Assembly: GCA_965204605.1 (NCBI GenBank)
Contig: OZ241999.1
Coordinates: 2,010,473 to 2,074,472, forward strand
DNA: 64,000 bases
Direction of reading: 5' to 3'
Source: Dehalococcoidia bacterium
Lineage (GTDB): Bacteria; Chloroflexota; Dehalococcoidia; Lucifugimonadales; JADFKI01
Shown: one piece after another, positions 39,644 through 58,315 of the stretch
Numbering within the stretch: position 1 is the stretch's first letter
Layout of the letters: every line of letters starts with the position of its first letter
The notes under the pieces: model-generated
The model's database searches: none
Seen by the model: only the letters and a program-made list of their open reading frames with translations
What the model was told of the DNA's origin: nothing
Program-made: the position numbers and the translations under genes

Positions 39644-42600
39644 ATGCCTACCGCCGCCGAAACCGCCCAAACCCTGTTCGCAAATCGCCGCAACCTAGTC
39701 GCGCTTGGCGACTACAGCGAACAAGACACCGTCAGAAATCTCATAGATCCCGCGCTGGATTTTCTGGGATTCCCAGGCGACCGCCAGCGGCGCGAATTCC
39801 AAGCGGGGGACAATCGCCCGGATATTGTGCTGTACGACGTCCCCGCCGCGCTTGCGGGACGGCGACACGCCGTCGCCATCCTGGAAGCAAAGCCGCTCAA
39901 CGCCGACCTGGACGGCAGAGGCAGCGCCCATTCGCGCAGACCCAAGAGCCAGCTGATGCGCTACATTATCGCTCATCCCGCAAGCGGCCCAGGCGCCTAC
40001 GGCATTCTCACCGACGGCAATGTATGGCACACAATCCGTCGCAGCGAATACGACGACAACCAAGCCAATTTTGTACAAGAATGGCGCTTGCTCGACGGCG
40101 ATCAGCGCCAGTGCGCCGAACATCTCGCCGAAATCAAGCGCATGCTCGCCGAGGCGGCGCCCGCCCATGCCGCCCCCGCCAGCGCAAGGCGGCGCGATCC
40201 AACCCAAAAGGCGCGCGAAATCTGCCAAGCGATTGCCGAAAACGCATCCCCCACCGTGATACTGAATATGCTCACTGACAAAACGGGGGCGCGCCAAACC
40301 CAAATCCAAACTGAAATCCGAGACGGAGAGATACGAATTTCCAGTACGGCGCAAACGGAAATCAACCGATGGCGTCAGTACGCATTCGCCCAAACCGCCC
40401 AGATTCGCGCCGAGCAAGCCGACGCCTCCCACGAAGCGCTCTGCGTAGCGGTGATTAGCGCCGAGCCGCCCATGATGGAAAACGACATGTCCATTCACCG
40501 CGAAGACGTCGCGCTCGCCGCCGAAACTTTCGCCAAAGTCGTGCCGCTCAAAATGTCAGTGGCGCTTATTGTCCAACCGGACGAAACCGGCAAATCCGCC
40601 GCCGCCCGCATCGCAGTCCACTACCAAGCGCATACCGGCATGACCACCGAGTTCAACCCGCATATGCCCGCGCCCAAAACCCTGCGAACCATACAGCGCA
40701 TCTACGACCAACTCAACAAGACCGCCGCCGTCAGAGCCGATACGCTGACGGACGCCGTCGCCGCCAAGACCGTCCGCAAAGAGTTCTTTGAGAAGCTCGC
40801 CAACGGCTGGACGCTGCGCCAACAGCGCAAGGCAGCCGGCAGCGCCAACCAGCGCCACGCCTACCGCGAAGCCGTATTGCGCCATCTCATTCGCGTCATT
40901 TTCGTGTGGATTCTCAACGAAGACGGCAAACTGCCGCCCGAAGCCTTCGACGAAGCTTTCGCAAAGCGCGAAGCGCCCGGCGATTACCACAACGCCATTC
41001 TCACATTCCTGTTCCACGAAAGGCTCAACCAGCCGCCCGCGGACCGCATAACGCATCCCAACCCGCGCATCCAAGAGGCGCTCGCGGATACGCGCTTCCT
41101 CAACGGCTCCCTGTTCGCGCGCCACCAACACGACGACATGCTGCATCTCACGGACGCCGACTATTTCGGCGCCGATCCGAATGCGCCCGGCTTGTTCACC
41201 ATTCTCAACGAGTACGATTGGACTTCGTCCGAACACACCCCATACGCCAGCGAACAGACGATTGACCCCGAAGTGCTCAGCAATCTGTTCGAAAACCTTA
41301 TCGCCGCCACCCAAATCGGCGAAGAAACGCCCGACAGAATGCCCGCCGGCACCTATTACACTCCGGCGGACGTGGCGTTCGAGATGGTGAAAGACGCGCT
41401 TGCCGAAGCCACGCTGCCGTATGCGCCACGCCCGTCTTATACGCGCGCCGATCTGCGCCGGCTGTTCGGCAACGACGACGAACTTCCCCCCGATAGCGAC
41501 GCAGAGGAGCGCAATCGGCTTATCGACCGAATCCGCAGCCTTGCCATTTACGACCCCGCGGTGGGTTCGGGCGAGTTCCCCTTCATATGCCACCTGGCAA
41601 TCAAGCGCTCGCTGCGGAAGTTGGGGGTGTCCGACGATGACGCAACCCTAACCCGCGACATCATCGCGCGCCAACTTTTCGCGCAAGACATCAACCCGAT
41701 GGCGGTGCAGGTTACCCGCCTGCGCCTGTTCATCGCCATCATCGCCGCCGAAGACGCCGCCGCCGATCCGGCAGCATACGAACCGCTGCCCAACCTCGAG
41801 GCAAAGATAGTTTGCGCCGATACGCTCGCCACCGTCGCCAGCCCGAACTGGTCCATTTTCGGCGCAGAAACCCTGCAGTCCCGCGCAACCCAAGTCAACA
41901 AAGCGCTAGAGCATGTCGCCGAAATCCGCCAAGAGTGGCAGTCGGCGCACGACGAACAGACCAAAGCCGAACTGCGCCGCCAAGACGCCGACGCCCGCAA
42001 AGCGCTGAGCGCCGCCATCGGACGCGGATACGCCAGCGCCGAAACTACCGCATTCGCCAAGCATCCGCTGCTCGATCCCGACGCCCCGCCCGTCGAGACC
42101 GATCCCAGGCTGCTGTTCTACAATCCCGACCGGCAAGGCTTCGACATCGTCATCGGCAACCCGCCATACGAAAGCGTGAACAAGGACTTGAAGACGGACA
42201 CGGCGCGCAGAGACCGCCGCCAAACCCTAAAGCTGCGCCGCTTCCGCACAATAGCGGGCAGCGATCTGTACAACCTCATCGCAGAAGCGGCGCTAACCCT
42301 CGCCAATCCCAGCGGCGGCGTTGTTACCCTCATCGTCCCCCTATCCATCTGCTTCGGGCAAAACAAGAAAGACCTGCGCCGCCTCTTCGAAGAACGCTCC
42401 AACCGCATCAGTCTGCGCTGCCAAGATAACCGCCCAGACAAGGTGTTTCATAATAGCCCGGTGGAACACGGCGAAAGCCGCGTCAGAGCGACGATAATCA
42501 CGGCGACGATGGGCAAGCAAAATCCGATTATTGAAACTAGCGGCATAAACAGATGGCCCAAATCTGAACGGCACGAATACTTCACTTCACGCCCCAAATC

Positions 42601-43246
42601 GGTAACGCTTACCACACAGCAGAACACCGTCGGGGACGCGCGCATCGATGCCCAATGGGGACGCATACACACAACCGAAATCGCCGATCTGCTCGACGCA
42701 ATGCGCGCTGAAGAGACCAAAATCGTCAATATGAACGGACTCGGACAAGCCGATCTAGCCTTGGGCTTTCCCCCGTCGGCAATGTACTTCATCACAACAG
42801 CGCCCGCCGGCAGTCTCAAGCGCAGAGAGAAACTCTTGCCTATCTCCGGCCAAGAAAACCTAGAGTTAGCCGTAGCCGCCGCCAACACCCACGCCGCCTA
42901 CGCCTGGTGGATGGCATACGGCGACGCATTCGACATCAACCGCCACGAAATCGCCACAATCGCCGTCCCGCGCGCTTGGCTTGACGATGCCGCCACCAAC
43001 CGCCGCGTCCGCCGCTTGGCGCGCGAGCTCATCGCCGCCATCAACCCGCAAAACATCCGCCCACTCACAACCGGCACGCTCAGCAGCGTCCAAGACAGCC
43101 TAAACTTCCACGAATGCGCCCCCGCCGCCATCGCCGAGCTAGACGCGCTATACCTAGACGCCCTAAGCCAGCCCCGCTCCACGCTAACGCAGCTCCACGC
43201 CCTCCGCAGCAACGTCACCTGGCGCTTGGGGGCGGCCGTCCCCTAA
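39644..43246 (+). CDS. Eco57I-like type IIG restriction-modification enzyme (PD-ExK nuclease + gamma-class N6-adenine methyltransferase + TRD)
   Basis: 1200 aa. N-terminal RPDIVLYD...AILEAKP (PD..ExK), YYTPADVAFEMV, motif I IYDPAVGSGEFPF, motif IV IVIGNPPYES, and a C-terminal region of about 400 aa. Confidence 0.85.
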   Translation: MPTAAETAQTLFANRRNLVALGDYSEQDTVRNLIDPALDFLGFPGDRQRREFQAGDNRPDIVLYDVPAALAGRRHAVAILEAKPLNADLDGRGSAHSRRPKSQLMRYIIAHPASGPGAYGILTDGNVWHTIRRSEYDDNQANFVQEWRLLDGDQRQCAEHLAEIKRMLAEAAPAHAAPASARRRDPTQKAREICQAIAENASPTVILNMLTDKTGARQTQIQTEIRDGEIRISSTAQTEINRWRQYAFAQTAQIRAEQADASHEALCVAVISAEPPMMENDMSIHREDVALAAETFAKVVPLKMSVALIVQPDETGKSAAARIAVHYQAHTGMTTEFNPHMPAPKTLRTIQRIYDQLNKTAAVRADTLTDAVAAKTVRKEFFEKLANGWTLRQQRKAAGSANQRHAYREAVLRHLIRVIFVWILNEDGKLPPEAFDEAFAKREAPGDYHNAILTFLFHERLNQPPADRITHPNPRIQEALADTRFLNGSLFARHQHDDMLHLTDADYFGADPNAPGLFTILNEYDWTSSEHTPYASEQTIDPEVLSNLFENLIAATQIGEETPDRMPAGTYYTPADVAFEMVKDALAEATLPYAPRPSYTRADLRRLFGNDDELPPDSDAEERNRLIDRIRSLAIYDPAVGSGEFPFICHLAIKRSLRKLGVSDDDATLTRDIIARQLFAQDINPMAVQVTRLRLFIAIIAAEDAAADPAAYEPLPNLEAKIVCADTLATVASPNWSIFGAETLQSRATQVNKALEHVAEIRQEWQSAHDEQTKAELRRQDADARKALSAAIGRGYASAETTAFAKHPLLDPDAPPVETDPRLLFYNPDRQGFDIVIGNPPYESVNKDLKTDTARRDRRQTLKLRRFRTIAGSDLYNLIAEAALTLANPSGGVVTLIVPLSICFGQNKKDLRRLFEERSNRISLRCQDNRPDKVFHNSPVEHGESRVRATIITATMGKQNPIIETSGINRWPKSERHEYFTSRPKSVTLTTQQNTVGDARIDAQWGRIHTTEIADLLDAMRAEETKIVNMNGLGQADLALGFPPSAMYFITTAPAGSLKRREKLLPISGQENLELAVAAANTHAAYAWWMAYGDAFDINRHEIATIAVPRAWLDDAATNRRVRRLARELIAAINPQNIRPLTTGTLSSVQDSLNFHECAPAAIAELDALYLDALSQPRSTLTQLHALRSNVTWRLGAAVP

Positions 43247-43419
43247 CCCCCCTTTGCGCCCCTGCGCCTTTGCGTTAAAAACCCGTCCCGCGCTATCAGC
43301 CGCCAAGCCGAATGCGTAGGCGCTTGCCATTCCAACCGCAAAAGGCGATACTTGCCCCACCGCAGAACGCAACATATACGCTGCAACGTCGGTTAAGCGT
43401 CGGTTAGAGGAGGGCATGT

Positions 43420-45172: not shown

Positions 45173-46513
45173 ATGGACAGCGTAACGCTCAAGAACTACC
45201 GATGCTTTCGCGAGGAGCAGACCGCGCGGCTTGCTCCGCTAACCCTGCTTGTGGGCGAAAACAGCACAGGGAAGACATCCTTCCTCGCGATACTGCGCGC
45301 GCTGTGGGATGGCGCATTTCACCCCGGAATACCTGACTTTCGAGAATATCCCTTTGACCTGGGCGCATTTGAGGACATAGTGCATAATCGTGGTTCTGTG
45401 GATAAGAAATCACCCCAAGCATTTGAGGCAGGATTTCTTCGTAACTTGCCACAACCTGATACTAATCTAGTGTCCTTCCGTGCTACTTTCAAAGAGATCG
45501 ACGGAGCGCCTGTCCCAGCGAACCGGAGGTTTGGAAACAAAGAATTTGGGGTGGAAGCGGGCATAGAAGAAGGTGAGCAAATGCTTACATTCATCACGCC
45601 CCAGAATCAATATCAATGGAACCTCTCAAGTAGTGGATTTGTCGGTAATAATCCGATTCCATTTCCACTTGCTCCCGACATGGTGCAGCTTCTACTTTTG
45701 CGAAAGATTCGTGACGGACAGTCAACTCATGAAAGTAGTGAATCCCTACCCACTGAAGCTGAATATGAATTAGGAAAAATAGACGCCTTAAATCAGGCGC
45801 TATTTTCTGAAGTCTTCTCAACAAGACGTCCGTATGCCGGCGCTCCATTCCGCTCTCACCCACGGCGGACTTATGACCCGATACGCACCTCGCGGGATAC
45901 CGAAGGCGAGGCCATCCCCACTTACTTGGCGAACCTGTACAGGGGCAATTCGGACGGATGGCAGAAACTAAAGAAGTCTCTTGAAGACTTTGGACGAAAG
46001 TCGGGGCTGTTTGACGATATTGCCATAATGTCATTCGGCAAGACATCGGGCGCGCCGTTTCAAATACAGGTTAGGAAGTGGGGCAAGCGCCGCAAAGGCG
46101 CCTATCGCAACCTGATAGATGTGGGTTACGGCGTCAGCCAAGCGCTACCGATTGTCACGGAATTGCTCCGCTCGGACGCGCCGCAAATGTTCTTGCTGCA
46201 GCAGCCCGAAGTGCATCTGCACCCAAGCGCGCAAGCCGCCTTGGGCACCTTATTCTGCGACGTCGCGTCACAGCGAAAGCAGCTCATCGTTGAAACGCAC
46301 AGCGACTACATCATCGACCGCGTGCGTATGGATGTGCGCGATAAGACTACCGCCCTCAAGCCCGATGATGTATCGATTCTGTACTTCGAGCGCGATGATT
46401 TGGATGTGAAAATCCACTCCATCCGCTTGGACGAAATGGGCAATGTGCTAGATGCGCCGCACTCTTACGGGAAGTTCTTCATGGAAGAAACACGGCGTTC
46501 AATAGGGTTGTAA
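45173..46513 (+). CDS. AAA/ABC-like ATPase (AAA_15/21 with a DUF3696-like C-terminus)
   Basis: Walker A LLVGENSTGKTSFL, Walker B/D-loop MFLLQQPEVHLHP, H-loop VETHSDY, and a C-terminal ..YGKFFMEE. AT-richer than its flanks. Confidence 0.8.
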   Translation: MDSVTLKNYRCFREEQTARLAPLTLLVGENSTGKTSFLAILRALWDGAFHPGIPDFREYPFDLGAFEDIVHNRGSVDKKSPQAFEAGFLRNLPQPDTNLVSFRATFKEIDGAPVPANRRFGNKEFGVEAGIEEGEQMLTFITPQNQYQWNLSSSGFVGNNPIPFPLAPDMVQLLLLRKIRDGQSTHESSESLPTEAEYELGKIDALNQALFSEVFSTRRPYAGAPFRSHPRRTYDPIRTSRDTEGEAIPTYLANLYRGNSDGWQKLKKSLEDFGRKSGLFDDIAIMSFGKTSGAPFQIQVRKWGKRRKGAYRNLIDVGYGVSQALPIVTELLRSDAPQMFLLQQPEVHLHPSAQAALGTLFCDVASQRKQLIVETHSDYIIDRVRMDVRDKTTALKPDDVSILYFERDDLDVKIHSIRLDEMGNVLDAPHSYGKFFMEETRRSIGL

Positions 46514-46516
46514 TGT

Positions 46517-47020
46517 ATGTGCGCCATAATGGACAACAATGTCAGACACGAAGTATTCGGCGATTCTGACACTCAGACTCCGGCAGGGAAATACTTTCTT
46601 GAGTGGTTGGAAGGTCAGAATAGAATTCATGGCATTTTAGTCATCGGCGGCGAACTCAAGCGGGAATTAGGCGAATATGACCGATTCCAAACTTGGGCTA
46701 AGACAGCCATTTTGTTTGGCCGAGTTAGAGAAATTAGCGATGGATCGGTGGACAACGAGACAAATGATTTGCGGGCGCAGAATATATGCAAATCCAACGA
46801 TGCGCATATACTTGCGTTGGCAAGAGTAAGCGATACACGGCTTCTATTTACTAACGATCAAGCCCTTCAAGACGATTTCGGAGATAGAAATATCATTAAC
46901 AATCCTCGGGGACAGATATACACTACGGCAGTCCGCCAGGACCTTCAGCAGGTTCACCGCGACCGCCTAGATCCGAGGACAATCAGGCGAATATGCAGAC
47001 ATTGTCGACAGAAGAGCTAG
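46517..47020 (+). CDS. PIN-like domain protein
   Basis: The acidic positions IMDNNV, SNDAHILALA and LLFTNDQAL are spaced as in PIN folds. Starts 3 nt after the ATPase stop. Confidence 0.55.
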   Translation: MCAIMDNNVRHEVFGDSDTQTPAGKYFLEWLEGQNRIHGILVIGGELKRELGEYDRFQTWAKTAILFGRVREISDGSVDNETNDLRAQNICKSNDAHILALARVSDTRLLFTNDQALQDDFGDRNIINNPRGQIYTTAVRQDLQQVHRDRLDPRTIRRICRHCRQKS

Positions 47021-47824: not shown

Positions 47825-49570
47825 ATGAGCGACTTCAATGCTATAGGCGCGACTGCCCGAATTTATCGAAAGTGGGGAACTCTGAAACTCGGCCTCACAG
47901 CCGCCGCCGCCGCAATCGCAGCCGCGCTTTTAGGCGGCGTCCAGCATTCTCAAGCCTACGCCGACAGCCCCACGCCTAGTCCGTCCGTCCACGCATCGCG
48001 CTCGACCGACGCCTCCTCCCAAGCCCTGCGCCGCTACACCCTGCAGCTGCTGCATATCCTGTCCGACGCCGACACCAACAAATGGGAGCGCTACCGGCAG
48101 GCGATGCCGCACTGCGCCGCCGCTCCAGCATACCTTGACGAAATCAATGCGAACAACGATGTCAGCCCGCTCGACGCGACCCTTATTGCGCTGACCGAGG
48201 ATCTATGCGCCGATTTGGATCAGCGCTTGGATGACGCTAGAACCGTCGGACTGCTCGTGAACGAATCCCAAGCTATGCGCGGTTATACTCTTATAGCCGC
48301 ACGCTTCAAAAGCCGTATTCATCTGATTGACCATAGCGGCAGAATAGTGCATGAATGGAGGAAACAACTCAGAGGCTGGGTTCCTCACGCGAAACTTTTG
48401 GATAACGGGAATCTGCTTATTGAGCAAAGAACCGGCATGGACAACAGAATAATAACGGAAATTGACCCGGATGGTAATATCGTGTGGCAATTCCCCTATT
48501 TCGAAAGACTCCACCACGATTTCATCAAAATGCCCAACGGCAATGTACTGATACTTGCGCGCGGCACTAAGACCAGCGAAGAAGCCATAGCCGCGGGCAT
48601 AGACCCGGACATCGTGCCCCCCGGGGGAGTAAACTACGATTATCTGATGGAAGTCCGCCCCACCGGAAGCGAAGGTGGCGAGATTGTGTGGGAATGGTCT
48701 GCCTGGGACTACCTAGCGCAGGACATCGACTCAAGCAAAAATAACTACCGCGTGATTGCTGAGCATCCCGAACTAATCGACGCTAATTTTACGTCAGGAA
48801 AATGGGGAGACGGCTATCCTATATACGCAATGGAACTGACGTACATCAACGGAATAGACTATAACCCTGAGCTAGACCATATAGCGCTCTCCGCGCGTTA
48901 TTACAGCGAATTGTGGATAATAGACCACAGCGCAACCACGGAAGAAGCGCCCACCCGCACAGGCGGCAACGCAGGCAAAGGCGGCGCGCTGCTGTACAGA
49001 TGGGGCAATCCGCGCGCCTACAGACACGGGACAACTGACGACCAACGTCTGTTCCGCCAGCACCACACTCAGTGGATAGCCCCCGGACTCCCGGGCGAGG
49101 GCAACATCCTTGTGTTCAACAACGGATTTGAGTGGGGGGCGGATTCGCCCGGGCACTCCTCCATAGAAGAAATCATTCCTCCGCTGGACGGATACGGCTA
49201 TCGGCGCGAGCCAGGCGAAGCTTATCCTCCTGCGGAACCCGTTTGGACATACACCGCCGAACCCGCCTCGGATTTTTATTCCCGCATCATGTCCGGCGTT
49301 CAACGACTTCCCAACGGCAACACCCTGATTTGCGAAGCGGCGAAGGGAACTGTGTTCCAAGTAACCCCGGATGGGAAAACGGTTTGGAAGTATGTGTATC
49401 CTATAACGAATCAGGACATCCCATTGAAGCAGGGCGATCAACCGACAATACGGCTAGGTAATGACATATTCAACAACGCCGTATATCGCGCCTACTGGTA
49501 CGCGCCCGACCATCCCGGATTGCAGAAATATGACCTGACGCCCGGCGACGCCATCGAACTTTACGAATAG
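47825..49570 (+). CDS. exported arylsulfotransferase (ASST)-like beta-propeller protein, paralogue 1
   Basis: Signal peptide ending SQAYA/DSPTP. HHDFIKMPNGNVL, YDYLMEVRP..GEIVWEW, NGIDYNPELD, SELWIIDHS, FRQHHTQWI, VQRLPNGNTLI, VFQVTPDGKTVWKY. Confidence 0.7.
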   Translation: MSDFNAIGATARIYRKWGTLKLGLTAAAAAIAAALLGGVQHSQAYADSPTPSPSVHASRSTDASSQALRRYTLQLLHILSDADTNKWERYRQAMPHCAAAPAYLDEINANNDVSPLDATLIALTEDLCADLDQRLDDARTVGLLVNESQAMRGYTLIAARFKSRIHLIDHSGRIVHEWRKQLRGWVPHAKLLDNGNLLIEQRTGMDNRIITEIDPDGNIVWQFPYFERLHHDFIKMPNGNVLILARGTKTSEEAIAAGIDPDIVPPGGVNYDYLMEVRPTGSEGGEIVWEWSAWDYLAQDIDSSKNNYRVIAEHPELIDANFTSGKWGDGYPIYAMELTYINGIDYNPELDHIALSARYYSELWIIDHSATTEEAPTRTGGNAGKGGALLYRWGNPRAYRHGTTDDQRLFRQHHTQWIAPGLPGEGNILVFNNGFEWGADSPGHSSIEEIIPPLDGYGYRREPGEAYPPAEPVWTYTAEPASDFYSRIMSGVQRLPNGNTLICEAAKGTVFQVTPDGKTVWKYVYPITNQDIPLKQGDQPTIRLGNDIFNNAVYRAYWYAPDHPGLQKYDLTPGDAIELYE

Positions 49571-49628
49571 GCGGCGGCAAGGTCCGCCTTGCGCCGCCGG
49601 AATAGCCATATATGAGACACCAACCCGA

Positions 49629-51371
49629 ATGAACAACTTTAACGCCATAGCCCCGGTTGCCCTAATTTGTCGGGGGGGGGGGGGGCGAAAACCTCTCATT
49701 GCCGCAATCGCCGCAATCGCAATCGCCGCAGCGCTTTTAGGCGGCGTCCGGCATTCGCAAGTCCATGCCGACAGCCCCACGCCCACGCGCGCGCCCGCAT
49801 ACCAATCTCCCGCCGCCTCCTCCCAAGCGCTGCGCCGCCACACCCTGCAGCTGCTGCATATCCTATCCAACCCCGACGCCAACCAATGGGAACGCTACCG
49901 CCAGGCAATTGCGCATTGCGCCTCCGCGCCAACATACCTTGCCGAAACCGGCGCAGACAGCGATGTCAGCCCGCTCGACGCGACCCTCATTGCGCTGACC
50001 GAGGATCTGTGCGCCGACCTGGATCAGCGCTTGGAAGACGCTAGAACCGTCGGACTGCTCGTGAACGAATCCCAAGCTATGCGCGGCTATACTTTGATAG
50101 CCGGACAGACGAATAACTATGTTCACCTGATTGATCGCCTTGGCAGAACCGTCCATTCATGGCAGTTGGGAAGGCGAATTTCCCACGCAAAGCTTATGGA
50201 CAACGGGAATCTGCTTGTTCAACTAGACGGAGACGAACTCAGCATATCGGAACTCGATCCGGATAGCAGAATCGTGTGGAAGTACATCCACGCCGGCGAC
50301 TTCCATCACGACTTTCTCAAGATGCCCAACGGCAATGTGTTGATGCTGGCGCACGGCGTTAAGACCAGGGAAGAAGCCATAGCGATGGGCGCAAACCCGA
50401 ACATCGTGCCCTCCGAAGGCATGCAATACGACTATCTGATAGAAGTGCGCCCCACCGGAAACGAAGGCGGCGAAATCGTGTGGGAATGGTCAACGCTGGA
50501 CTACCTAGTCCAGGACTTCGACCCAACCAAGCCAAACTACGGCGCTCCCTCCGAACATCCCGAACTAATCGACGCTAATTTCTCGGCAGGAAGATACTGG
50601 GCTAACAATAACATCTTGGCATGGACGTACATCAACGGGATAGACTATAACCCTGAACTAGACCAGATAGCGCTCTCCGCACGTCATTTCAGCGAACTGT
50701 GGATAATAGACCACAGCGCAACCAGAGAAGAAGCGCCCACCCGCACAGGCGGCAACGCAGGCAAAGGCGGCGCGCTGCTGTACAGATGGGGCAACCCGCG
50801 CGCCTATCGACACGGAACGGTCGACGATCAACGGCTGTTTCGACAGCACCACACTCACTGGATAGCGCCCGGACTGCCCGGCGCAGGCAACATCCTTATG
50901 TTCAACAACGGATATGAGATAGGACTAGGCAAGGATCCACCCTTCTATTCGTCAATAGAAGAGATAGTTCCCCCGGTGGACGGATACGGCTATCGGCGCG
51001 ATCCCGGAGACCCCTACCCTCCCGCCGAGCCTGTCTGGAGATACGCCTCCGAACCGCCCACGGACTTTTACTCCCGCTTGTTGTCGAGCGCGCAACGGCT
51101 TCCTAACGGCAACACCCTGATTTGCGAGGGAATGCAGGGCAATGTGTTCCAAATAACCCCGGACGGAAGAACGGTCTGGAGATATGTGTACCCTATGGAT
51201 GGCGATACGCCATTGAAGCAGGGCGAGGAAGCTTCGATATACACTCAGCTGAGACGTGGAGATGCCACGTTCAACAACGCCGTATATCGCGCCTACTGGT
51301 ACGCGCCCGACCATCCCGGATTGCAGAAATATGACCTGACGCCCGGCGACGCCATCGAACTTTACGAATAG
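49629..51371 (+). CDS. ASST-like beta-propeller protein, paralogue 2 (G14 tract in codons 15-19)
   Basis: Same blocks as paralogue 1. The reading frame is intact only with the observed 14 G. Confidence 0.7.
   Translation: MNNFNAIAPVALICRGGGGRKPLIAAIAAIAIAAALLGGVRHSQVHADSPTPTRAPAYQSPAASSQALRRHTLQLLHILSNPDANQWERYRQAIAHCASAPTYLAETGADSDVSPLDATLIALTEDLCADLDQRLEDARTVGLLVNESQAMRGYTLIAGQTNNYVHLIDRLGRTVHSWQLGRRISHAKLMDNGNLLVQLDGDELSISELDPDSRIVWKYIHAGDFHHDFLKMPNGNVLMLAHGVKTREEAIAMGANPNIVPSEGMQYDYLIEVRPTGNEGGEIVWEWSTLDYLVQDFDPTKPNYGAPSEHPELIDANFSAGRYWANNNILAWTYINGIDYNPELDQIALSARHFSELWIIDHSATREEAPTRTGGNAGKGGALLYRWGNPRAYRHGTVDDQRLFRQHHTHWIAPGLPGAGNILMFNNGYEIGLGKDPPFYSSIEEIVPPVDGYGYRRDPGDPYPPAEPVWRYASEPPTDFYSRLLSSAQRLPNGNTLICEGMQGNVFQITPDGRTVWRYVYPMDGDTPLKQGEEASIYTQLRRGDATFNNAVYRAYWYAPDHPGLQKYDLTPGDAIELYE
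49672..49685 (+). repeat. homopolymeric G14 tract inside the 5' coding region of paralogue 2
   Basis: Counted directly: c + 9 g at 49671-49680 plus 5 g at 49681-49685. Translated as RGGGG. Confidence 0.9.
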
Positions 51372-51429
51372 GCGGCGGCAAGGTCCGCCTTGCGCCGCCG
51401 GAATAGCCACATATGAGACACCAACCCAA

Positions 51430-53136
51430 ATGAACAACTTTAACGCCATAGCCCCGGTTGCCCTAATCTGTCGTGTAGGGGGGCGAAAACCGCTCATTGC
51501 CGCAGTCGCCGCAATCGCCATCGCAGCCGCGCTTTTAGGCGGCGTCCGGCATTCGCAAGTCTATGCCGACAGCCCCACGCCCACGCCCGCCCGCGCCTCG
51601 CAACCATCCGACGCCGACGCCCATACCCTGCGGCGCTACACCCTGCAGCTGTTGCATATCCTATCCGACGCCGACTCCAACCGGTGGGAGCGCTACCGCC
51701 AGGCAATTGCGCATTGCGCCTCCCCCCCGGCATATCTTGGTGAAATCGGCGCAGACAGCGACGTCAGCCCGCTCGACCACGCCGTTGCTGCGATGACCGA
51801 GGATCTGTGCGCCGACCTGGATCAGCGCTTGGAAGACGCTAGAACCGTCGGACTGCTCATGAACGAACCCGAAGCTATGCGCGGCTATACTTTGATAACC
51901 GGATTTAGCGATAACTACGTTTACCTGGTTGACCACCTTGGCAGAATCGCCCATTCATGGCAGTTGGGAAGGCGAATTGCCCACGCAAAGCTTATGGATA
52001 ACGGGAATCTGCTTGTTCAACTAGGCAGAGGCGAGGAACTCAGCATACTCGATCCGGATAGCGGCATCGTGTGGAAGTACACCCATACCGGCAACTTCCA
52101 TCACGACTTTCTTAAGATGCCCAACGGCAATTTGTTGATGATAGTGCGAGGCTTTAAGTCCAGAGAAGAGGCCATACAGACAGGCGTAAATCCGGACGTC
52201 GTCCCATTAGAAGGAATGGAATACGACTACCTGATAGAAGTGCGCCCCACGGGAAGCGATGACGGCGAAATTGTGTGGGAATGGTCTGCGTGGGACTACA
52301 TAGTGCAGGACTTCGACGCATCCAAAGAGAACTACGGAGATCCATCCGATCATCCCGAACTAATTGACGTTAATTTTTTGGTGAAATCGAGTCGAGGCCG
52401 CGGCCGCAATACTTTGAATTGGCTCCATACCAATGCAATAGACTACAATCCTTCGCTAAACCAGATAATCCTTTCACCGCGGAATAACGACGAATTGTGG
52501 ATAATAGACCGTAGCGTCTCCACAGAAATTGCCCCCACGCGCAAAGGCGGAAACGCAGGCAAAGGCGGCGCGCTGCTGTACAGATGGGGCAATCCGCGCG
52601 CCTACAGGCACGGGACAACTGACGACCAACGTCTGTTCCGCCAGCACCATACTCAGTGGATAGCCCCCGGACTCCCGGGCGAGGGCAACATCCTTGTGTT
52701 CAACAACAAAAATGAGTTCGCGGCAGATCAGCGTAAGAACTACTCCTCCATAGAAGAGATCGTTCCCCCAACGGATGGATCCGAGTATAAGCGCGAACCG
52801 GACGCAGCCTATCCCCCTGTGGAGCCTGTCTGGACATACACCGCCGAACCTCCCTCGGATTTTTATTCCAGCGTCATGGGATGCGTGCAGCGGCTTCCCA
52901 ACGGGAACACCCTGATTTGCGATTCAACTTCAGGCGCCGTGTTTCAAGTAACTCCCGATGGAACGACCGTCTGGAAGTACGTTTATCCCATACGCGGCGA
53001 TATTCCATTGAAACAAGGTGAGGAAGTTGACGCAGACAATAGCTTCGTATATCGCGCCTACTGGTATGCGCCCGACTATCCCGGCCTGCAGAAATACGAC
53101 CTGACGCCCGGCGATACTATTGAGCTTTACGAATAG
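51430..53136 (+). CDS. ASST-like beta-propeller protein, paralogue 3
   Basis: Same blocks. The 5' end and upstream spacer are nearly identical to paralogue 2. Confidence 0.7.
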   Translation: MNNFNAIAPVALICRVGGRKPLIAAVAAIAIAAALLGGVRHSQVYADSPTPTPARASQPSDADAHTLRRYTLQLLHILSDADSNRWERYRQAIAHCASPPAYLGEIGADSDVSPLDHAVAAMTEDLCADLDQRLEDARTVGLLMNEPEAMRGYTLITGFSDNYVYLVDHLGRIAHSWQLGRRIAHAKLMDNGNLLVQLGRGEELSILDPDSGIVWKYTHTGNFHHDFLKMPNGNLLMIVRGFKSREEAIQTGVNPDVVPLEGMEYDYLIEVRPTGSDDGEIVWEWSAWDYIVQDFDASKENYGDPSDHPELIDVNFLVKSSRGRGRNTLNWLHTNAIDYNPSLNQIILSPRNNDELWIIDRSVSTEIAPTRKGGNAGKGGALLYRWGNPRAYRHGTTDDQRLFRQHHTQWIAPGLPGEGNILVFNNKNEFAADQRKNYSSIEEIVPPTDGSEYKREPDAAYPPVEPVWTYTAEPPSDFYSSVMGCVQRLPNGNTLICDSTSGAVFQVTPDGTTVWKYVYPIRGDIPLKQGEEVDADNSFVYRAYWYAPDYPGLQKYDLTPGDTIELYE

Positions 53137-53215
53137 ACGGCGGCAATTGATTGGACGCAGCGAATAGCCGTTTGTTATAATACGGCGAATATAAGCAGTA
53201 GAAACAGTAGCCGAA

Positions 53216-54754
53216 ATGAGCAAATTCAGCGCCGTATCGCGCTTTACTCCGCCGCTTCAATTTGTCAGGGGTTGGAGGGTGAAAACCGCCCTCGCCGCCG
53301 CCGCCGCAATCGCCATCGCCGCAATCGCAATCGCAGCCGCGCTTCTCCCGCTGAACGATGCGCCGTGCGACGGCTTGGACATAAATCCCCATAATTACTA
53401 TCCGCCCGCCGACGACGCTAGAACCGTCGGACTGCTCCTTAACGAACCGAAGTCTATCTGCGGATACGTCTTGATACCCGGACGTTTCAACAACTACGTT
53501 CACCTCATTGACCATCTTGGCAGAATCGTCAATGAATGGCAGTTCGAAAATAAAGTCTATCTCGCAGAGCTTTTGGATAACGGGAATCTGCTCGTTATAA
53601 TTCTAGAAGACGACGATAGCGACGGCCGCAACATAGCCGAAGTCGATCCGAACGGCAATATCGTGTGGCAATACACCCACATCGACGAACTCCATCGCGA
53701 TTTCATCAAGATGCCCAACGGCAATGTACTGATGTTGGCGCAGGGCGTTAAGACTAGGGAAGAAGCCATAGCGGCAGGCGCTAACCCGGATTTCATCCCA
53801 GAGCAAGGAATGCTATACGACTATCTGATAGAGATGCGTCCCGCCGGAAGCGAAGGCGGCGAGGTTGTGTGGGAATGGTCGTCGTGGGATTACATAACGC
53901 AGAACGTCGACGCAGCCAAATCAAATTACGGCGATCCTTCCGATCATCCCGAACTAATCGACGCCAACTTCTATACCGGAGCGACGCCGCCCGGCCCGCG
54001 TTCCCTACGGGACTGGCTGCATACTAACGCAATAGACTACAACCCTGAGCTAGACCTGATAGCGCTTTCCCCGCGCCAATTTAGCGAATTGTGGATTATA
54101 GATTACAGCCCCGCCACCGAAGAGGCGGCAGCGCGCAGTAGCCCCAACCCGCGCAAGGACGGCGCGCTGCTATACAGATATGGCAACCCGCGCGCCTACG
54201 GGCATGGGACGAACGCCGACCGCCAGCTGTTTCGGCAGCACCATATCCAATGGATAGCGCCCGAACTGCCCGGCGCAGGCGACATTCTTATCTTCAACAA
54301 CGGACACGCCTCGGATGAATACCCGCGTCAGTACTCATCCATAGATCAAATCGTTCTCCCAATGGACGGATACGAATATCGACACGAACCGAAAGCAGAG
54401 TACCCTCCACCCAAGCTTGTCTGGACTTACACTGCCGAAACCCCCGCCGATTTTTACTCCGGCATCATGGGCGGCGTGCAGCGGCTACCCAACGGCAACA
54501 CGCTCATTAGCGAATCAACGTCAGGAACCCTGTTTCAGATAACGCCCGATGGCAAGACGGTCTGGAAGTATGTGTACCCGATGGATGGCGATACTCCATT
54601 GAAACAGGGCGCGGAAGCCACGCTGCTAACGACTTTAAGCAACGACCGCCTGCTAAACAACGCCGTATATCGCGCCTACTGGTACGCGCCCGACCATCCC
54701 GGCCTGCAAAAGTACGACCTGACGCCCGGCGACGCCATTGAGCTTTACGAATAG
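53216..54754 (+). CDS. ASST-like beta-propeller protein, paralogue 4 (lacks the N-terminal helical domain)
   Basis: The signal anchor is followed directly by ..DDARTVGLLLNEP. Propeller blocks are conserved. Confidence 0.7.
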   Translation: MSKFSAVSRFTPPLQFVRGWRVKTALAAAAAIAIAAIAIAAALLPLNDAPCDGLDINPHNYYPPADDARTVGLLLNEPKSICGYVLIPGRFNNYVHLIDHLGRIVNEWQFENKVYLAELLDNGNLLVIILEDDDSDGRNIAEVDPNGNIVWQYTHIDELHRDFIKMPNGNVLMLAQGVKTREEAIAAGANPDFIPEQGMLYDYLIEMRPAGSEGGEVVWEWSSWDYITQNVDAAKSNYGDPSDHPELIDANFYTGATPPGPRSLRDWLHTNAIDYNPELDLIALSPRQFSELWIIDYSPATEEAAARSSPNPRKDGALLYRYGNPRAYGHGTNADRQLFRQHHIQWIAPELPGAGDILIFNNGHASDEYPRQYSSIDQIVLPMDGYEYRHEPKAEYPPPKLVWTYTAETPADFYSGIMGGVQRLPNGNTLISESTSGTLFQITPDGKTVWKYVYPMDGDTPLKQGAEATLLTTLSNDRLLNNAVYRAYWYAPDHPGLQKYDLTPGDAIELYE

Positions 54755-54856
54755 GCCGCGGCAAAATTGTCTTTGCGCCCGCAGAGCAGCCACCTAGGAG
54801 ACAGCGACCCAAATTGACTAACATCAACGCCACAGCCCTAGCCAGCCTAATTTGTC

Positions 54857-54874
54857 GGGGGGGGGGGGGGGGGG
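54857..54874 (+). repeat. homopolymeric G18 tract 1 nt upstream of the ATG of paralogue 5
   Basis: Counted directly as 4 + 10 + 4 g. Occupies the same TGTCG-(G)n position as in paralogue 2. Confidence 0.9.
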
Positions 54875-54875
54875 A

Positions 54876-56525
54876 ATGAAAACCGCCCTCACAGCCGCCG
54901 CCGCATTCGCAATCGCCGCCGCGCTTTTAGCCGCCGCCCCGCATTCGCAAGCCTATGCCGACAGCCCAACGTCGTCAAATGCCCGCGTCTCGCAACCGCC
55001 CGCCGACGCCTCCCAAGCCTTGCGCCGCTACACCCAGCAGTTGCTGCGCATCCTATCCAACCCCGACGCCAACCGGTGGGAACGCTACCGCCAGGCTATG
55101 CCGCATTGCGCCGACGCCCCTGCGCGCCTTGCCGAAATCAACGCAGCCAGCGACGTCAGCGCTCTCGACGCGACCCTTGCGGCGCTGACCGAGGATCTGT
55201 GCAGCGACCTGGATCAACGCCTGGACGAAGCTAGAACCGTCGGGTTGCTCATAAACGAACCCGAGGCTATGCGCGGATATACTTTGATACCTGGAAGATC
55301 CAGTAACTATGTTCGCCTGATTGACCATCTCGGCAGAGTCGCGCATTCATGGCAGTTAGAAAATGGGATTACCCACGCAAGGCTTTTGGATAACGGGCAT
55401 CTGCTTGTTCCTCTGGACAACGACAATGGACGGAGCATAGCGGAAGTCGATCAGGACAGCAATATCGTGTACCAATACTCACCCCCAGGATACTTCCATC
55501 ACGACTTCCTCAAGATGCCTAACGGCAATCTGCTGCTGCTGCTGCGAGGCTCCAAGACTAGAGAAGAAGCCGTAGCTGCGGGCGCAAACCCGGACGGCGT
55601 CCCTTCCGGGGGGATGCGGTACGACTATCTGATAGAAGTGCGCCCAGCAGGAACGGACGGCGGCGAGATTGTGTGGGAATGGTCGTCGTGGGACTACAGA
55701 GTGCAGGACTTCGACGCAAGCAAAGACAACTACGGAGTGATTGCCGAACATCCCGAACTAATCGACCTTAACTTTTTGGTTGAATCGCCGCCTATCAACC
55801 CCCGGGCCAACGCCTGGATTTGGCTGCATATCAACGGGATAGATTACAATCCTGATCTAGATCAGATAGCGCTTTCCCTCAGAAATCATAGCGAATTGTG
55901 GATTATAGACCACAACGCAGACGCTCAAGAGGCGCAAGCAAAGGCGGCTCCGCTGTACAGATGGGGCAACCCGCGCGCCTACGGACACGGAACAATTGCC
56001 GATCGACGGCTGTTCCTACAGCACCATACTCAGTGGATAGCCCCCGGACTGCCGGGCGCCGGCAATATCCTCGTGTTCAACAACGGATGGGCGCATGAGG
56101 AAGATCAGATTAGGAACTATTCGTCCATAGAAGAAATCGTTCCGCCGACGGACGGATACGGCTATCGGCGCGAGCCGGGAGTGCCATATCTTGAGACCGA
56201 TCCCGTATGGACATACACCGCCGAACCTCCCTCGGATTTTTATTCCCGCGTCATGGGATGCGTGCAACGGCTGCCCAACGGCAACACGCTGATTTGCGAT
56301 TCAACTTCGGGAACTGTATTGCAGGTAACTCCGGATGGAAAGACCGTCTGGAAGTACGTCTATCCCGTAGTTGCCGGTATGCCATTGAAGCAAGGCGAGG
56401 AAGTTGACGCGCGCCCTAACGCACGCAATAACGCCGTATATCGCGCCTACTGGTACGCGCCCGACCATCCCGGCCTGCAGAAATACGACCTGACGCCCGG
56501 CGATACCATTGAGCTTTACGAATAG
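54876..56525 (+). CDS. ASST-like beta-propeller protein, paralogue 5 (G18 tract immediately upstream of ATG)
   Basis: MKTALTAAAAFAIAAALLAAAPHSQAYA signal peptide. The ORF track's start at TTG 54852 reads through the G tract. The ancestral upstream start region (54814) is out of frame. Confidence 0.7.
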   Translation: MKTALTAAAAFAIAAALLAAAPHSQAYADSPTSSNARVSQPPADASQALRRYTQQLLRILSNPDANRWERYRQAMPHCADAPARLAEINAASDVSALDATLAALTEDLCSDLDQRLDEARTVGLLINEPEAMRGYTLIPGRSSNYVRLIDHLGRVAHSWQLENGITHARLLDNGHLLVPLDNDNGRSIAEVDQDSNIVYQYSPPGYFHHDFLKMPNGNLLLLLRGSKTREEAVAAGANPDGVPSGGMRYDYLIEVRPAGTDGGEIVWEWSSWDYRVQDFDASKDNYGVIAEHPELIDLNFLVESPPINPRANAWIWLHINGIDYNPDLDQIALSLRNHSELWIIDHNADAQEAQAKAAPLYRWGNPRAYGHGTIADRRLFLQHHTQWIAPGLPGAGNILVFNNGWAHEEDQIRNYSSIEEIVPPTDGYGYRREPGVPYLETDPVWTYTAEPPSDFYSRVMGCVQRLPNGNTLICDSTSGTVLQVTPDGKTVWKYVYPVVAGMPLKQGEEVDARPNARNNAVYRAYWYAPDHPGLQKYDLTPGDTIELYE

Positions 56526-56587
56526 ACGCGACGGCAAGGTCCGCCCTTGCGCCGCCATACCAACCATATTAGGAGACAGCAACCCAA

Positions 56588-58315
56588 ATGACTAGCATCA
56601 ACGCCACAGCCCTAGCCAGCCTAATTTGTCGAAGGGGAATGAAAACCGCCCTCACAGCCGCCGCCGTCGCAATCGCCGCGCTTGTAGGCGGCGGCCTGCA
56701 TTCGCAAGCCTATGCCGACAGTCCAACGTCGTCAAACGCCCGCGCCTCGCAACCGCCTGCCGACGCCTCCCAATCCCTGCGCCGCTACACCCAGCAGTTG
56801 CTGCGCATCCTATCCAACCCCGACGCCAACCGGTGGGAACGCTACCGCCAGGCTATGCCGCATTGCGCCGACGCTCCAACATATCTTGAAGCGATCGGCT
56901 CAGGCAGCGGCGTCGACACGCTCGACAACGCCCTTATCGCGCTGACCGAGGATCTGTGCGCCGACCTGGATCAACGCTTGGACGACGCTAGAACCGTCGG
57001 ACTGCTCATAAACGAACCCGAGGCTATGCGCGGATATACTTTGATACCTGGAACAGTCAACAACTATGTTCACCTGATTGACCATCTCGGCAGAGTTGCG
57101 CATTCATGGCAGTTAGAAAATGGGATTTCCCACGCAAGGCTCTTGGATAACGGGCATCTGCTTGTTCAACTAGCCGGCGACAATGGACGGAGCATAGCGG
57201 AAGTCGATCAGGACAGCAACATCGTGTATCAATACTCACCCCCAGGATTCTTCCACCACGACTTCCTCAATATGCCTAACGGCAATCTGATGATGTTGAT
57301 ACGCGGTTCCAAGACTAGAGAAGAAGCCGTAGCTGCGGGCGCAAACCCGGACGGCGTCCCTTCCGGGGGGATGCGGTACGACTATCTGATAGAAGTGCGC
57401 CCAACAGGAACGGACGGCGGCGAGATTGTGTGGGAATGGTCGTCGTGGGACTACAGAGTGCAGGACTTCGACGCAGGCAAAGACAACTACGGAGTGATTG
57501 CCGAACATCCCGAACTAATCGACCTTAACTTTTTGGTTGAATCGCCGCCTATCAACCGCCGGACCGATGCCTGGATGTGGCTGCACGCCAACGCAATAGA
57601 CTACAATTCCGCCCTCGATCAGATTATGCTGTCCCCCAGAAACCTTGACGAATTATGGATAATAGACCGCAGCGCAACCACCGAAGAGGCGCCCACGCGC
57701 AGCGGCGGCAATGCCGGCAAGGGCGGCGCCCTGCTGTACAGATGGGGCAACCCACGCGCCTACGGACACGGAACAATTGCCGATCGACGGCTGTTCCTGC
57801 CGCATCATCCCCAGTGGATAGCCCCCGGACTGCCGGGCGCCGGCAACATCCTCGTGTTCAACAACGGATGGGCCCATGAGGAAGATCAGATTAGGAACTA
57901 TTCGTCCATAGAAGAAATCGTTCCGCCGACGGACGGATACGGCTATCGGCGCGAGCCGGGAGCGGCGTATCCTCCTGCCGAGCCCGCTTGGACATACGTC
58001 GCCGAACCTCCCTCGGATTTTTATTCCCGCATCATGGGATGCGTGCAGCGGCTTCCCAATGGGAACACGCTAATTTGCGAGTCAACATCAGGCAATCTGT
58101 TTCAAGTAACCCCGGATGGAAAGACCGTCTGGAAGTATGTGTACCCGATGGATCGCGATACTCCATTGAAACAGGGCGAAGAAGCGTCGCCGCGGGAAAA
58201 CGTACAAGGCTTATTCAGCAACGCCGTATATCGCGCCTACTGGTACGCGCCCGACCATCCCGGCCTGCAGAAATACGACCTGACGCCCGGCGATACCATT
58301 GAGCTTTACGAATAG
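56588..58315 (+). CDS. ASST-like beta-propeller protein, paralogue 6
   Basis: Same blocks. The N-terminal extension MTSINATALASLICRRG is in frame with MKTAL. Confidence 0.7.
   Translation: MTSINATALASLICRRGMKTALTAAAVAIAALVGGGLHSQAYADSPTSSNARASQPPADASQSLRRYTQQLLRILSNPDANRWERYRQAMPHCADAPTYLEAIGSGSGVDTLDNALIALTEDLCADLDQRLDDARTVGLLINEPEAMRGYTLIPGTVNNYVHLIDHLGRVAHSWQLENGISHARLLDNGHLLVQLAGDNGRSIAEVDQDSNIVYQYSPPGFFHHDFLNMPNGNLMMLIRGSKTREEAVAAGANPDGVPSGGMRYDYLIEVRPTGTDGGEIVWEWSSWDYRVQDFDAGKDNYGVIAEHPELIDLNFLVESPPINRRTDAWMWLHANAIDYNSALDQIMLSPRNLDELWIIDRSATTEEAPTRSGGNAGKGGALLYRWGNPRAYGHGTIADRRLFLPHHPQWIAPGLPGAGNILVFNNGWAHEEDQIRNYSSIEEIVPPTDGYGYRREPGAAYPPAEPAWTYVAEPPSDFYSRIMGCVQRLPNGNTLICESTSGNLFQVTPDGKTVWKYVYPMDRDTPLKQGEEASPRENVQGLFSNAVYRAYWYAPDHPGLQKYDLTPGDTIELYE

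What the first reader, a model, noticed from the sequence alone, without database searches (positions are those of the whole stretch)
49672..49685. G14 tract inside the start of paralogue 2: candidate ON/OFF phase-variation switch
Fourteen consecutive G encode RGGGG between the cytoplasmic N-terminus and the signal-anchor helix. The homologous position is short or interrupted in the other copies: G6 in copy 3 (CGTGTAGGGGGG), GAAGGGG in copy 6, and AAAGTGGGG in copy 1. The long run is therefore a derived expansion. There is no in-frame ATG immediately after the tract, so a +1 or -1 slippage would truncate the protein. Homopolymer contingency loci are classic in Neisseria, Haemophilus and Campylobacter. 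They would be unusual in a high-GC environmental-type genome and in a gene family of this kind.
Basis: partly seen in the sequence, partly recalled or inferred. Interest (0 to 1): 0.65.

Follow-up and report, generated by a model that had tools for sequence, protein, structure and literature searches.

The report
Poly-G switch in symbiont enzyme genes
The run of 14 G's is real and lies in the signal-peptide coding part of a secreted arylsulfotransferase-like gene of a sponge-associated Dehalococcoidia bacterium; it is one of many slippage-prone G/C runs that put members of this gene family in or out of frame between strains, a pathogen-style contingency switch that I found no report of in this phylum.

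Summary
The G14 tract at 49672-49685 is confirmed. It is not a chance feature and not an assembly artefact. It encodes RGGGG between the N-terminal extension and the hydrophobic signal helix of copy 2 in a six-gene tandem array of arylsulfotransferase-like (PF05935) genes.

Across the window and ten related Dehalococcoidia loci (277 kb), 28 of 29 homopolymers of 8 nt or more lie in these genes. They sit at three fixed positions: a 5' poly-G and two internal poly-C sites.

Tract length differs between orthologues:
- Copy 2 is G14 here but GTGTAG6 in a 97%-identical strain.
- Copy 5 is G18, G19, G11 or G10.
- Another gene is G12 (in frame) in one strain and G10 (out of frame) in another.

Contigs from the same sample hold both G18 and G19 for copy 5. 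A second run holds G14 and G13 for copy 2. For copy 2, ±1 G gives 36- or 138-aa products and there is no alternative start.

Best reading: slipped-strand ON/OFF contingency loci. No raw reads were available, so reversible switching is unproven. The "derived expansion" claim is not supported.

The parts
49672..49685 (+). G14 homopolymer, the candidate slippage switch of copy 2; encodes (R)GGGG
   Evidence: exact G14 contig in run X1
49629..51371 (+). Copy 2 ORF, 580 aa, arylsulfotransferase-like beta-propeller pre-protein; in frame (ON) at G14
   Evidence: (PF05935, 67 bits against a cutoff of 24)
49629..49671 (+). N-terminal extension MNNFNAIAPVALIC; it ends in the nucleotide motif CCCTAATTTGTC, which precedes the tract in most paralogues
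49686..49769 (+). RK + hydrophobic helix LIAAIAAIAIAAALLGGV + RHSQVHA (AxA-like site): signal peptide or anchor core. It has no start codon, so there is no rescue after a frameshift
   Evidence: assignment by inspection
54857..54874 (+). G18 homopolymer at the same position in copy 5
   Evidence: G18 and G19 contigs in run X1
54814..54879 (+). At G18: a 21-codon leader ORF from the conserved upstream TTG. Its TGA stop overlaps the ATG of the main ORF (AATGA)
54876..56525 (+). Copy 5 main ORF from the ATG right after the tract (549 aa, starts MKTALTAAAAF...)
   Evidence: P0125
47825..58315 (+). Tandem array of six arylsulfotransferase-like paralogues (copies 1-6)
51473..51483 (+). Copy 3 equivalent GTGTAGGGGGG (interrupted tract, in frame)
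   Evidence: a copy-3-like array member in L017 has G12CA here
56631..56637 (+). Copy 6 equivalent GAAGGGG, followed by ATG
51722..51728 (+). C7 in copy 3 at the second hot spot of the family (about aa 100); C10 and C11 in relatives

Best explanation
The G14 tract is a hypermutable homopolymer inside the signal-peptide coding region of a secreted or membrane-anchored arylsulfotransferase-like enzyme gene. Slipped-strand mispairing during replication changes its length. At G11, G14 or G17 the full 579-581 aa pre-protein is made. At ±1 G translation stops after 36 or 138 codons. Copy 2 has no start codon behind the tract, so the gene is then off. The tract belongs to a family-wide system in sponge-associated Dehalococcoidia. 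Many paralogues carry a poly-G at this same site and poly-C tracts at two internal sites. Each copy can therefore be switched on its own, and a population holds cells with different sets of active enzymes. This is analogous to the multi-copy Opa genes of Neisseria, whose repeats also lie in the leader-peptide coding sequence. Shown: the tract, its position, the predicted frames, length and frame differences between strains, and co-existing lengths in contigs of one sample. Inferred: the slippage mechanism, reversibility, rate and selective benefit.
For: (1) The tract is real and non-random. (2) In 277 kb (window plus 10 related loci), 28 of 29 homopolymers of at least 8 nt lie in ASST-like genes, which make up 34% of the DNA (binomial p = 2e-12). 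They sit at three fixed positions: about aa 13-18 poly-G (16 tracts, G10-G19), about aa 100 poly-C (2 tracts) and about aa 364-387 poly-C (10 tracts). (3) Orthologues differ in length and frame. Copy 2 is G14 here, and GTGTAG6 in L011 (97.3% nt identity) and in P0001. Copy 5 is G18 (window), G19 (L018), G11 (L011) and G10 (L017). The gene P0032/P0146 is G12 in frame in L016 and G10 out of frame in L014. In-frame variants within one 90% cluster read RGGGV, RGGGGK and RGGGGGK. (4) At the internal poly-C site, C9 is in frame in 5 genes and C8, C10 or C13 are frameshifted in 5 genes. (5) Within one sample, run X1 holds G18 (depth 34.3) and G19 (19.8) for copy 5, with no G17 contig among the pieces shown. 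Run X2 holds G14 (28.1) and G13 (9.5) for copy 2. (6) Predicted products: copy 2 gives 580 aa at G14, 36 aa at G13 and 138 aa at G15. (7) The upstream ATG appears to be the real start. Thirteen of 16 long tracts are in frame with it (about 1e-4 against an expected one third). Some copies have deleted the whole segment but kept the ATG in frame (MSKFNA|LTAAV). (8) No known RNA family and no stable RNA fold occur at the site.
Against: No raw reads were available. Assembler contigs drop rare variants, and library or sequencing slippage at G14-G18 cannot be separated from variation in the cells. Run X1 (the same strain, depth 72) shows only G14 at this particular tract. A G14 tract in a paralogue of another host's symbiont has the same length in the MAG and in three runs, so consensus lengths can be stable. 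Most long tracts (13 of 16) are in frame. That also fits plain purifying selection on a tolerated Gly run. The family is very large and redundant, so frameshifted copies could simply be decaying. There are no expression or protein data, and mismatch-repair status is unknown.
Confidence: 0.68

Rival explanations
1. Neutral mutational hot spot. The G run is a by-product of a Gly-rich linker in a fast-duplicating, redundant gene family. Length changes and frameshifts are real, but they reflect drift and pseudogenisation, not a selected reversible switch.
For: Array copy number varies from 2 to 6 or more between related strains. Several copies are split or have lost domains. Many copies carry interrupted G-rich remnants. 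Half of the internal poly-C tracts are frameshifted.
Against: Tracts recur at the same three positions in paralogues only 62-75% identical. They are almost absent from the other 66% of the DNA. Thirteen of 16 5' tracts stay in frame. Uninterrupted tracts of 12-19 G would be expected to decay quickly without selection (established knowledge of simple-sequence repeats).
Confidence: 0.2
2. The tract mainly tunes translation initiation. It acts as a Shine-Dalgarno-like G run, or sets up leader-ORF coupling, for an ATG/GTG start directly behind it, so slippage changes the N-terminal form or the level rather than switching ON/OFF.
For: In most paralogues the codon after the tract is ATG, GTG or CTG followed by AAA (M/V/L-K-T-A-L). 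Some array members start exactly there (MLKSSL...). Gene callers start 43 of about 91 close homologues there. In copy 5 at G18 the leader ORF's TGA overlaps the ATG (AATGA). All three out-of-frame 5' tracts have ATG or GTG behind them.
Against: This does not apply to copy 2, the subject of the finding. CGA AAA follows the tract and there is no start codon in the signal-peptide region. The G run ends 0-2 nt before the start. SD motifs found upstream of other ORFs in this window (about a third of those checked) begin 10-16 nt upstream of the ATG.
Confidence: 0.08
3. Transcriptional or ribosomal slippage on the long G run produces mixed reading frames at the RNA level. The DNA length would then matter little and out-of-frame copies would still be expressed.
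For: Long homopolymers are known slippage sites for RNA polymerase (general knowledge). Run X2 shows many low-depth variant contigs at the G18 tract beside high-depth flanks, but whether this run is RNA or DNA is unknown.
Against: No RNA data could be identified. The strong in-frame bias of DNA tract lengths (13 of 16) argues that the DNA frame matters.
Confidence: 0.03
4. Assembly or poly-G sequencing artefact.
For: Two-colour Illumina chemistry makes spurious poly-G, and long-read consensus miscounts homopolymers (general knowledge).
Against: An exact G14 with matching flanks on both sides is seen in an independent run at depth 72. Homologous tracts occur in eight independent assemblies built by different methods, and in contigs of runs from other hosts. 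The tract keeps the ORF in frame.
Confidence: 0.01

Closest known systems
Neisseria gonorrhoeae opa genes (CTCTT repeats in the leader-peptide coding sequence; about 11 copies per genome; PMC3745409)
   Same: A multi-copy family of exported proteins. The repeat lies in the signal/leader-peptide coding region of each copy. Each copy goes in or out of frame on its own, giving combinatorial expression.
   Different: The unit is a pentamer, not a homopolymer. The products are outer-membrane adhesins of a pathogen, not enzymes of a Chloroflexota symbiont. Switching rate (about 1e-3) and phenotype are measured there and not here.
Intragenic poly-G/C contingency loci of Neisseria, Haemophilus and Campylobacter (e.g. 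hmbR/hpuAB, PMC3786947; Campylobacter G/C tracts, PMC8355987)
   Same: G/C homopolymers of 8 nt or more inside ORFs, ±1 slippage, ON/OFF by frameshift, and length polymorphism between isolates.
   Different: Those are small, low- to mid-GC pathogen genomes with many different tract-bearing genes. Here the tracts sampled are nearly all in one enzyme family, at three fixed sites, and are longer (up to G19).
Gardnerella nanH3 sialidase poly-C tract (bioRxiv 10.1101/2020.09.16.300947) and Listeria inlA 5' poly-A tract (PMC2831843)
   Same: A homopolymer in the gene of an exported protein. For inlA it is at the 5' end and the frameshift leaves an 8-aa peptide. Length varies within cell populations (nanH3) or between strains (inlA). 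The outcome is the full-length protein or a short truncated peptide.
   Different: Those are single genes in cultured, host-associated Actinobacteria or Firmicutes, and the variation was verified by cloning or reporters.
Homopolymer phase variation in high-GC bacteria (Bordetella pertussis PMC1891110; Mycobacterium tuberculosis PMC10334774)
   Same: It shows that G/C-tract slippage operates in genomes of about 65% GC.
   Different: The tracts are usually shorter (7-15 nt) and scattered over unrelated genes, not a paralogous array.
E. coli arylsulfate sulfotransferase AssT (PDB 3ELQ)
   Same: Pfam PF05935 is matched above the curated cutoff. A family profile hits AssT (E = 7e-4). AssT His436 and Arg374 align with residues invariant in the family (His407 and Arg352 of copy 2).
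   Different: The relationship is very distant (no single-sequence hit). There is an extra N-terminal helical domain and a Pro/Thr-rich linker. AssT His356 is not conserved in copy 2. Activity is untested.

Membership tests
Simple-sequence-repeat contingency (phase-variable) locus | A long uninterrupted repeat (homopolymer of about 8-9 nt or more) within an ORF or promoter | tested here: met
   G14 lies within codons 15-19 of ORF 49629-51371
Simple-sequence-repeat contingency (phase-variable) locus | A change in repeat number alters the reading frame or expression | tested here: met
   In silico: G14 gives 580 aa, G13 gives 36 aa, G15 gives 138 aa, with no downstream start codon
Simple-sequence-repeat contingency (phase-variable) locus | Repeat length is polymorphic between closely related strains, with both ON and OFF alleles | tested here: met
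   Copy 2 is G14 here and GTGTAG6 elsewhere. Copy 5 is G18, G19, G11 or G10. P0032/P0146 is G12 ON and G10 OFF. The internal poly-C is C9 ON and C8, C10 or C13 OFF
Simple-sequence-repeat contingency (phase-variable) locus | Length heterogeneity within one population above technical error | tested here: inconclusive
   G18 and G19 contigs (34.3 and 19.8) occur in X1, and G14 and G13 (28.1 and 9.5) in X2. These are assembler contigs only, there is no error control, and X1 shows only G14 at copy 2
Simple-sequence-repeat contingency (phase-variable) locus | High-frequency, reversible switching in clonal descent, with a phenotype | not testable with these tools
   The symbiont is uncultured and no raw reads or expression data were available
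Arylsulfate sulfotransferase (ASST, PF05935) | Match to the family profile above the curated threshold | tested here: met
   57-73 bits against a cutoff of 24.2 for four paralogues tested
Arylsulfate sulfotransferase (ASST, PF05935) | Catalytic histidine (AssT His436) and Arg374 conserved | tested here: met
   In the profile alignment to 3ELQ, His436 aligns with invariant His407 and Arg374 with invariant Arg352. His356 is not conserved in copy 2
Arylsulfate sulfotransferase (ASST, PF05935) | PAPS-independent aryl sulfate transfer activity | not testable with these tools
   An enzyme assay is needed

The most novel reading that the evidence does not exclude
Sponge-associated Dehalococcoidia run a combinatorial contingency system on a massively expanded family of exported arylsulfotransferase-like enzymes. 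Each paralogue carries up to three independent G/C homopolymer switches. The 5' one may be three-state in copies with ATG/GTG behind the tract: fused long form, leader-coupled short form, and off. This would be the first phase-variation system described in Chloroflexota and in a marine mutualist. It would vary the set of enzymes that act on host or sponge phenolic and sulfated metabolites, or the surface proteins seen by host cells or phages.
Probability: 0.35. Interest if true: 0.72.

Novelty: new member of a known kind. Interest (0 to 1): 0.55.

Why it matters
Homopolymer contingency loci are textbook features of small-genome pathogens. My literature searches found none described for Chloroflexota or for sponge symbionts. 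If confirmed, this would show that an abundant, uncultured marine symbiont diversifies its secreted enzyme set by stochastic switching. It would also point to this arylsulfotransferase-like family as important at the host-symbiont interface; the database search returned more than 7,000 relatives at E <= 1e-20. There is a practical warning for MAG annotation too: gene callers start 43 of about 91 close homologues behind the tract or split genes at the tracts, so the ON/OFF state is being mis-annotated as different genes.

Tried and rejected
(1) A pattern scan of JGI metagenome contigs for CTAATTTGTC+G8 returned only unrelated low-GC matches. (2) An exact-protein look-up of copy 2 found nothing, although the identical protein P0122 is in the cluster table. 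(3) No run is kept as raw reads, so true read-level length counts were impossible, and whether run X2 is RNA or DNA could not be settled. (4) A single-sequence PDB search gave only designed propellers; a profile was needed to reach AssT. (5) A known RNA element or a stable RNA structure at the 5' end was rejected: there is no Rfam hit, and the fold z-score is +1.26. (6) A Tat signal was considered. Some distant members have RRxSLK-like motifs (P0010), but copy 2 has only R-G4-R-K, so this was not pursued. (7) I considered the idea that the conserved upstream segment is an untranslated leader and the true start lies behind the tract. For copy 2 this was rejected because there is no start codon, because of the in-frame bias, and because deletion variants keep the upstream ATG. 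It remains a partial possibility for copies 5 and 6. (8) A G-quadruplex was not pursued; a single G14 is too short for a standard three-tetrad fold.

Full report
OBSERVATION. Positions 49672-49685 are fourteen G's on the + strand. They lie in ORF 49629-51371 (580 aa) and read C-R-G-G-G-G-R-K. The 64-kb window (58.5% GC) contains only two homopolymers longer than 7 nt. The other is G18 at 54857-54874, preceded by the same CTAATTTGTC motif, at the homologous position of the fifth paralogue. No G14 occurred in 100 dinucleotide-preserving shuffles.

GENE AND ORGANISM. Six tandem paralogues (47825-58315, all on the + strand) match Pfam PF05935, arylsulfotransferase, well above the curated cutoff in the four tested. 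A profile of 18 family members reaches E. coli AssT (3ELQ, E = 7e-4). In that alignment the AssT catalytic His436 and Arg374 fall on residues that are invariant in the family. A single-sequence search did not reach AssT.

The N-terminus of copy 2 is MNNFNAIAPVALIC-RGGGG-RK-LIAAIAAIAIAAALLGGV-RHSQVHA|DSP. That is a long n-region, the Gly run, a hydrophobic helix and an AxA-like site, followed by a Pro/Thr-rich linker. I assigned these parts by inspection.

The closest named genomes are closed 'MAG: Dehalococcoidia bacterium' assemblies of 3.2 Mb. The runs that hold the sequence are sponge and marine metagenomes. The window's own proteins map to a 3,279,149-bp contig.

THE TRACT IS REAL. Run X1 matches the window with zero differences at uniform depth of about 70-85 over 18 kb, so it is DNA of the same strain. 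It contains an exact G14 contig at depth 72.3. Run X5, from another study, also reaches 14 G.

THE PATTERN IS FAMILY-WIDE. I fetched ten related loci. L001 and L002 are the Dehalococcoidia hits from the genome collection; a third hit, L003 from a Latescibacteria MAG, was not used. L011-L018 came from exact-protein look-ups, and several are syntenic with the window. In the combined 277 kb, 28 of 29 homopolymers of at least 8 nt lie in ASST-like genes, which make up 34% of the DNA (p = 2e-12). They fall at three positions:
- Poly-G at about aa 13-18: 16 tracts, G10-G19.
- Poly-C at about aa 100: C10 and C11. Window copy 3 has C7 here, at 51722-51728.
- Poly-C at about aa 364-387, inside a roughly 20-aa insertion: 10 tracts.

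At the third site C9 is in frame in five genes, and C8, C10 or C13 are frameshifted in five. Several of the frameshifted genes (in L012 and L016) are called as split genes.

ORTHOLOGUE COMPARISONS. L011 is 97.3% identical to the window over 18 kb. Its copy 2 has GTGTAGGGGGG instead of G14, and its copy 5 has G11 in frame instead of G18. Two further strains have copy 5 as T+G10 (in frame) and as G19+TG (out of frame). In L017 the copy-3-like second member of the array has G12CA where the window, L011 and L018 have GTGTAG6. The gene P0032/P0146 is G12 in frame in L016 and G10 out of frame in L014, with near-identical flanks. Within clusters at 90% identity the N-termini read RGGGV, RGGGGK, RGGGGGK, RVGGR, RGGGAR and so on. 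Of the 16 long 5' tracts, 13 are in frame with the conserved upstream ATG/TTG and 3 are not.

WHICH START CODON IS USED. The codon behind the tract is usually ATG, GTG or CTG followed by AAA. Gene callers often start there (43 of about 91 close homologues), and some array members really do start there (MLKSSL...). Three observations argue that the upstream ATG is used:
- The in-frame bias, about 1e-4 against an expected one third, although the tracts are not fully independent.
- Copies that deleted the whole segment but kept the ATG fused in frame (MSKFNA|LTAAV).
- Copies such as 2 and 3 that have no start codon behind the tract.

The 'PNLSGGGG' N-termini (P0013, P0038, L001) are the same nucleotides, CCTAATTTGTCGGG, read in another frame after an upstream indel of about 5 nt. 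The reading frame is back in register downstream of the tract.

PREDICTED CONSEQUENCES. For copy 2, G14 gives 580 aa, G13 gives 36 aa and G15 gives 138 aa. G11 and G17 are in frame, differing only by a Gly residue. For copy 5, G18 as assembled gives a 21-codon leader whose TGA overlaps the ATG of the main ORF (AATGA). G19 and G16 give the fused long form. G17 and G20 read through out of frame for about 140 codons. Copy 2 is therefore a clean ON/OFF case. Copy 5 may have three states; that is inference.

VARIATION WITHIN A SAMPLE. Only Logan contigs were available. In X1 the copy-5 tract is covered by a G18 contig (depth 34.3) and a G19 contig (19.8), against flanks at about 69. Among the pieces listed there is no G17 form, and the contig boundaries hint at a G20-or-longer branch. 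Technical slippage usually favours contraction, so this is mildly in favour of real alleles. In X2 copy 2 has G14 (28.1) and G13 (9.5), and a contig from a second strain at depth 305 ends inside at least 13 G. In X1 copy 2 shows only G14. In another host's runs a G14 paralogue has the same length in three runs and in the MAG. So heterogeneity is suggested but not proven.

ALTERNATIVES. An artefact is excluded. No Rfam family or stable fold lies at the site. A role in translation initiation or leader coupling is plausible for copies with ATG/GTG behind the tract, but not for copy 2. SD motifs found upstream of other ORFs in this window (about a third of those checked) begin 10-16 nt upstream of the ATG, whereas the tract ends 0-2 nt from the start. 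Neutral decay in a redundant family remains the main rival. Against it stand the positional recurrence in diverged paralogues, the near-restriction to this family and the in-frame bias.

COMPARISON WITH KNOWN SYSTEMS. The mechanism is the classical slipped-strand contingency locus. The closest analogue in layout is the gonococcal opa family, which has repeats in the leader-peptide coding sequence of about 11 copies (PMC3745409). Single-gene analogues are Gardnerella nanH3 and Listeria inlA. High-GC examples exist in Bordetella and M. tuberculosis. Searches found no report for Chloroflexota, for sponge symbionts or for this enzyme family. I therefore rate it a new member of a known kind, in an unexpected lineage and gene family.

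VERDICT. Confidence in the slippage-switch reading is 0.68. Interest is 0.55.

Noticed in passing
window 54857-54874: A second and longer tract, G18, sits at the same position in copy 5. As assembled it is out of frame with the conserved upstream TTG start. The stop of the 21-codon leader overlaps the ATG of the main ORF (AATGA). Run X1 holds both G18 and G19 contigs.
   Followed up: yes
L001, L002, L012, L016, L017, L018 (e.g. L012 14717-14729): Many relatives carry a poly-C tract inside a roughly 20-aa insertion (…NANPGNGNTPP…) at about aa 364-387. C9 is in frame; C8, C10 and C13 are frameshifted. Several of the frameshifted genes (in L012 and L016) are called as split genes. None of the six window copies has this insertion tract.
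   Followed up: yes
window 51722-51728; L013 8478-8487; L018 6841-6851: A third hot spot lies at about aa 100 (HCASPP…). It is C7 in window copy 3, and C10 and C11 in relatives.
   Followed up: partly
window 49489-49763 against 51290-51565; L011 10001 and 11799: The 5' ends of copies 2 and 3 are nearly identical and appear to be exchanged. In L011 the two 5' regions are identical over the stretch compared. Contigs of X3 and X4 combine copy-2-type and copy-3-type SNPs on either side of the tract. This suggests gene conversion, possibly with breakpoints near the tract.
   Followed up: partly
window 47825-58315 against L011, L014-L018: The same syntenic slot (thiolase-like, OB-fold, AAA_15 and nitroreductase genes on one side, a luciferase-like gene on the other) holds 2 to 6 ASST-like copies in different strains. 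Run X2 has a contig joining 49720 to 54854, which may be a recombinant or deletion form between copies 2 and 5.
   Followed up: partly
L015 427-437: This is the only tract outside an ASST-like gene. On the minus strand it is a C11 in the 5' end of another ORF that looks like a signal peptide (MRFTPPP…YISSSTAFYFLTALVAAVLLFALL). It is out of frame at C11 and in frame at C10. Homopolymer switches may therefore extend to other exported proteins.
   Followed up: partly
P0013, P0038, P0074, L001 (minus strand, near 3770 and 7508): N-termini reading MSKFHNPGCPNLSGG… are the same nucleotides, CCTAATTTGTCGGG, as …ALICRGG… read in another frame after an upstream indel of about 5 nt. The reading frame is back in register downstream of the tract.
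   Followed up: partly
window 53216-54754: Copy 4 (512 aa) lacks the roughly 90-aa N-terminal helical domain that the other copies have between the signal peptide and the propeller.
   Followed up: no
window 39644-43246 and 45173-47020: A 1200-aa MmeI/Eco57I-type restriction-modification gene, and an AAA_15 ATPase gene with a small downstream ORF, lie just upstream of the array (Pfam labels taken from the syntenic locus L011). The region around 43250-43284 shows structural variants in runs X2 and X10.
   Followed up: no
window 8881-11089 (minus strand): ORFs 8881-9741 and 9741-10415 share nearly identical 30-nt upstream sequences, and two equal-sized (224 aa) ORFs, 9741-10415 and 10415-11089, abut end to end. 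This may be another small tandem duplication.
   Followed up: no
window 34059-34142: One tRNA gene, the only Rfam match in the window.
   Followed up: no
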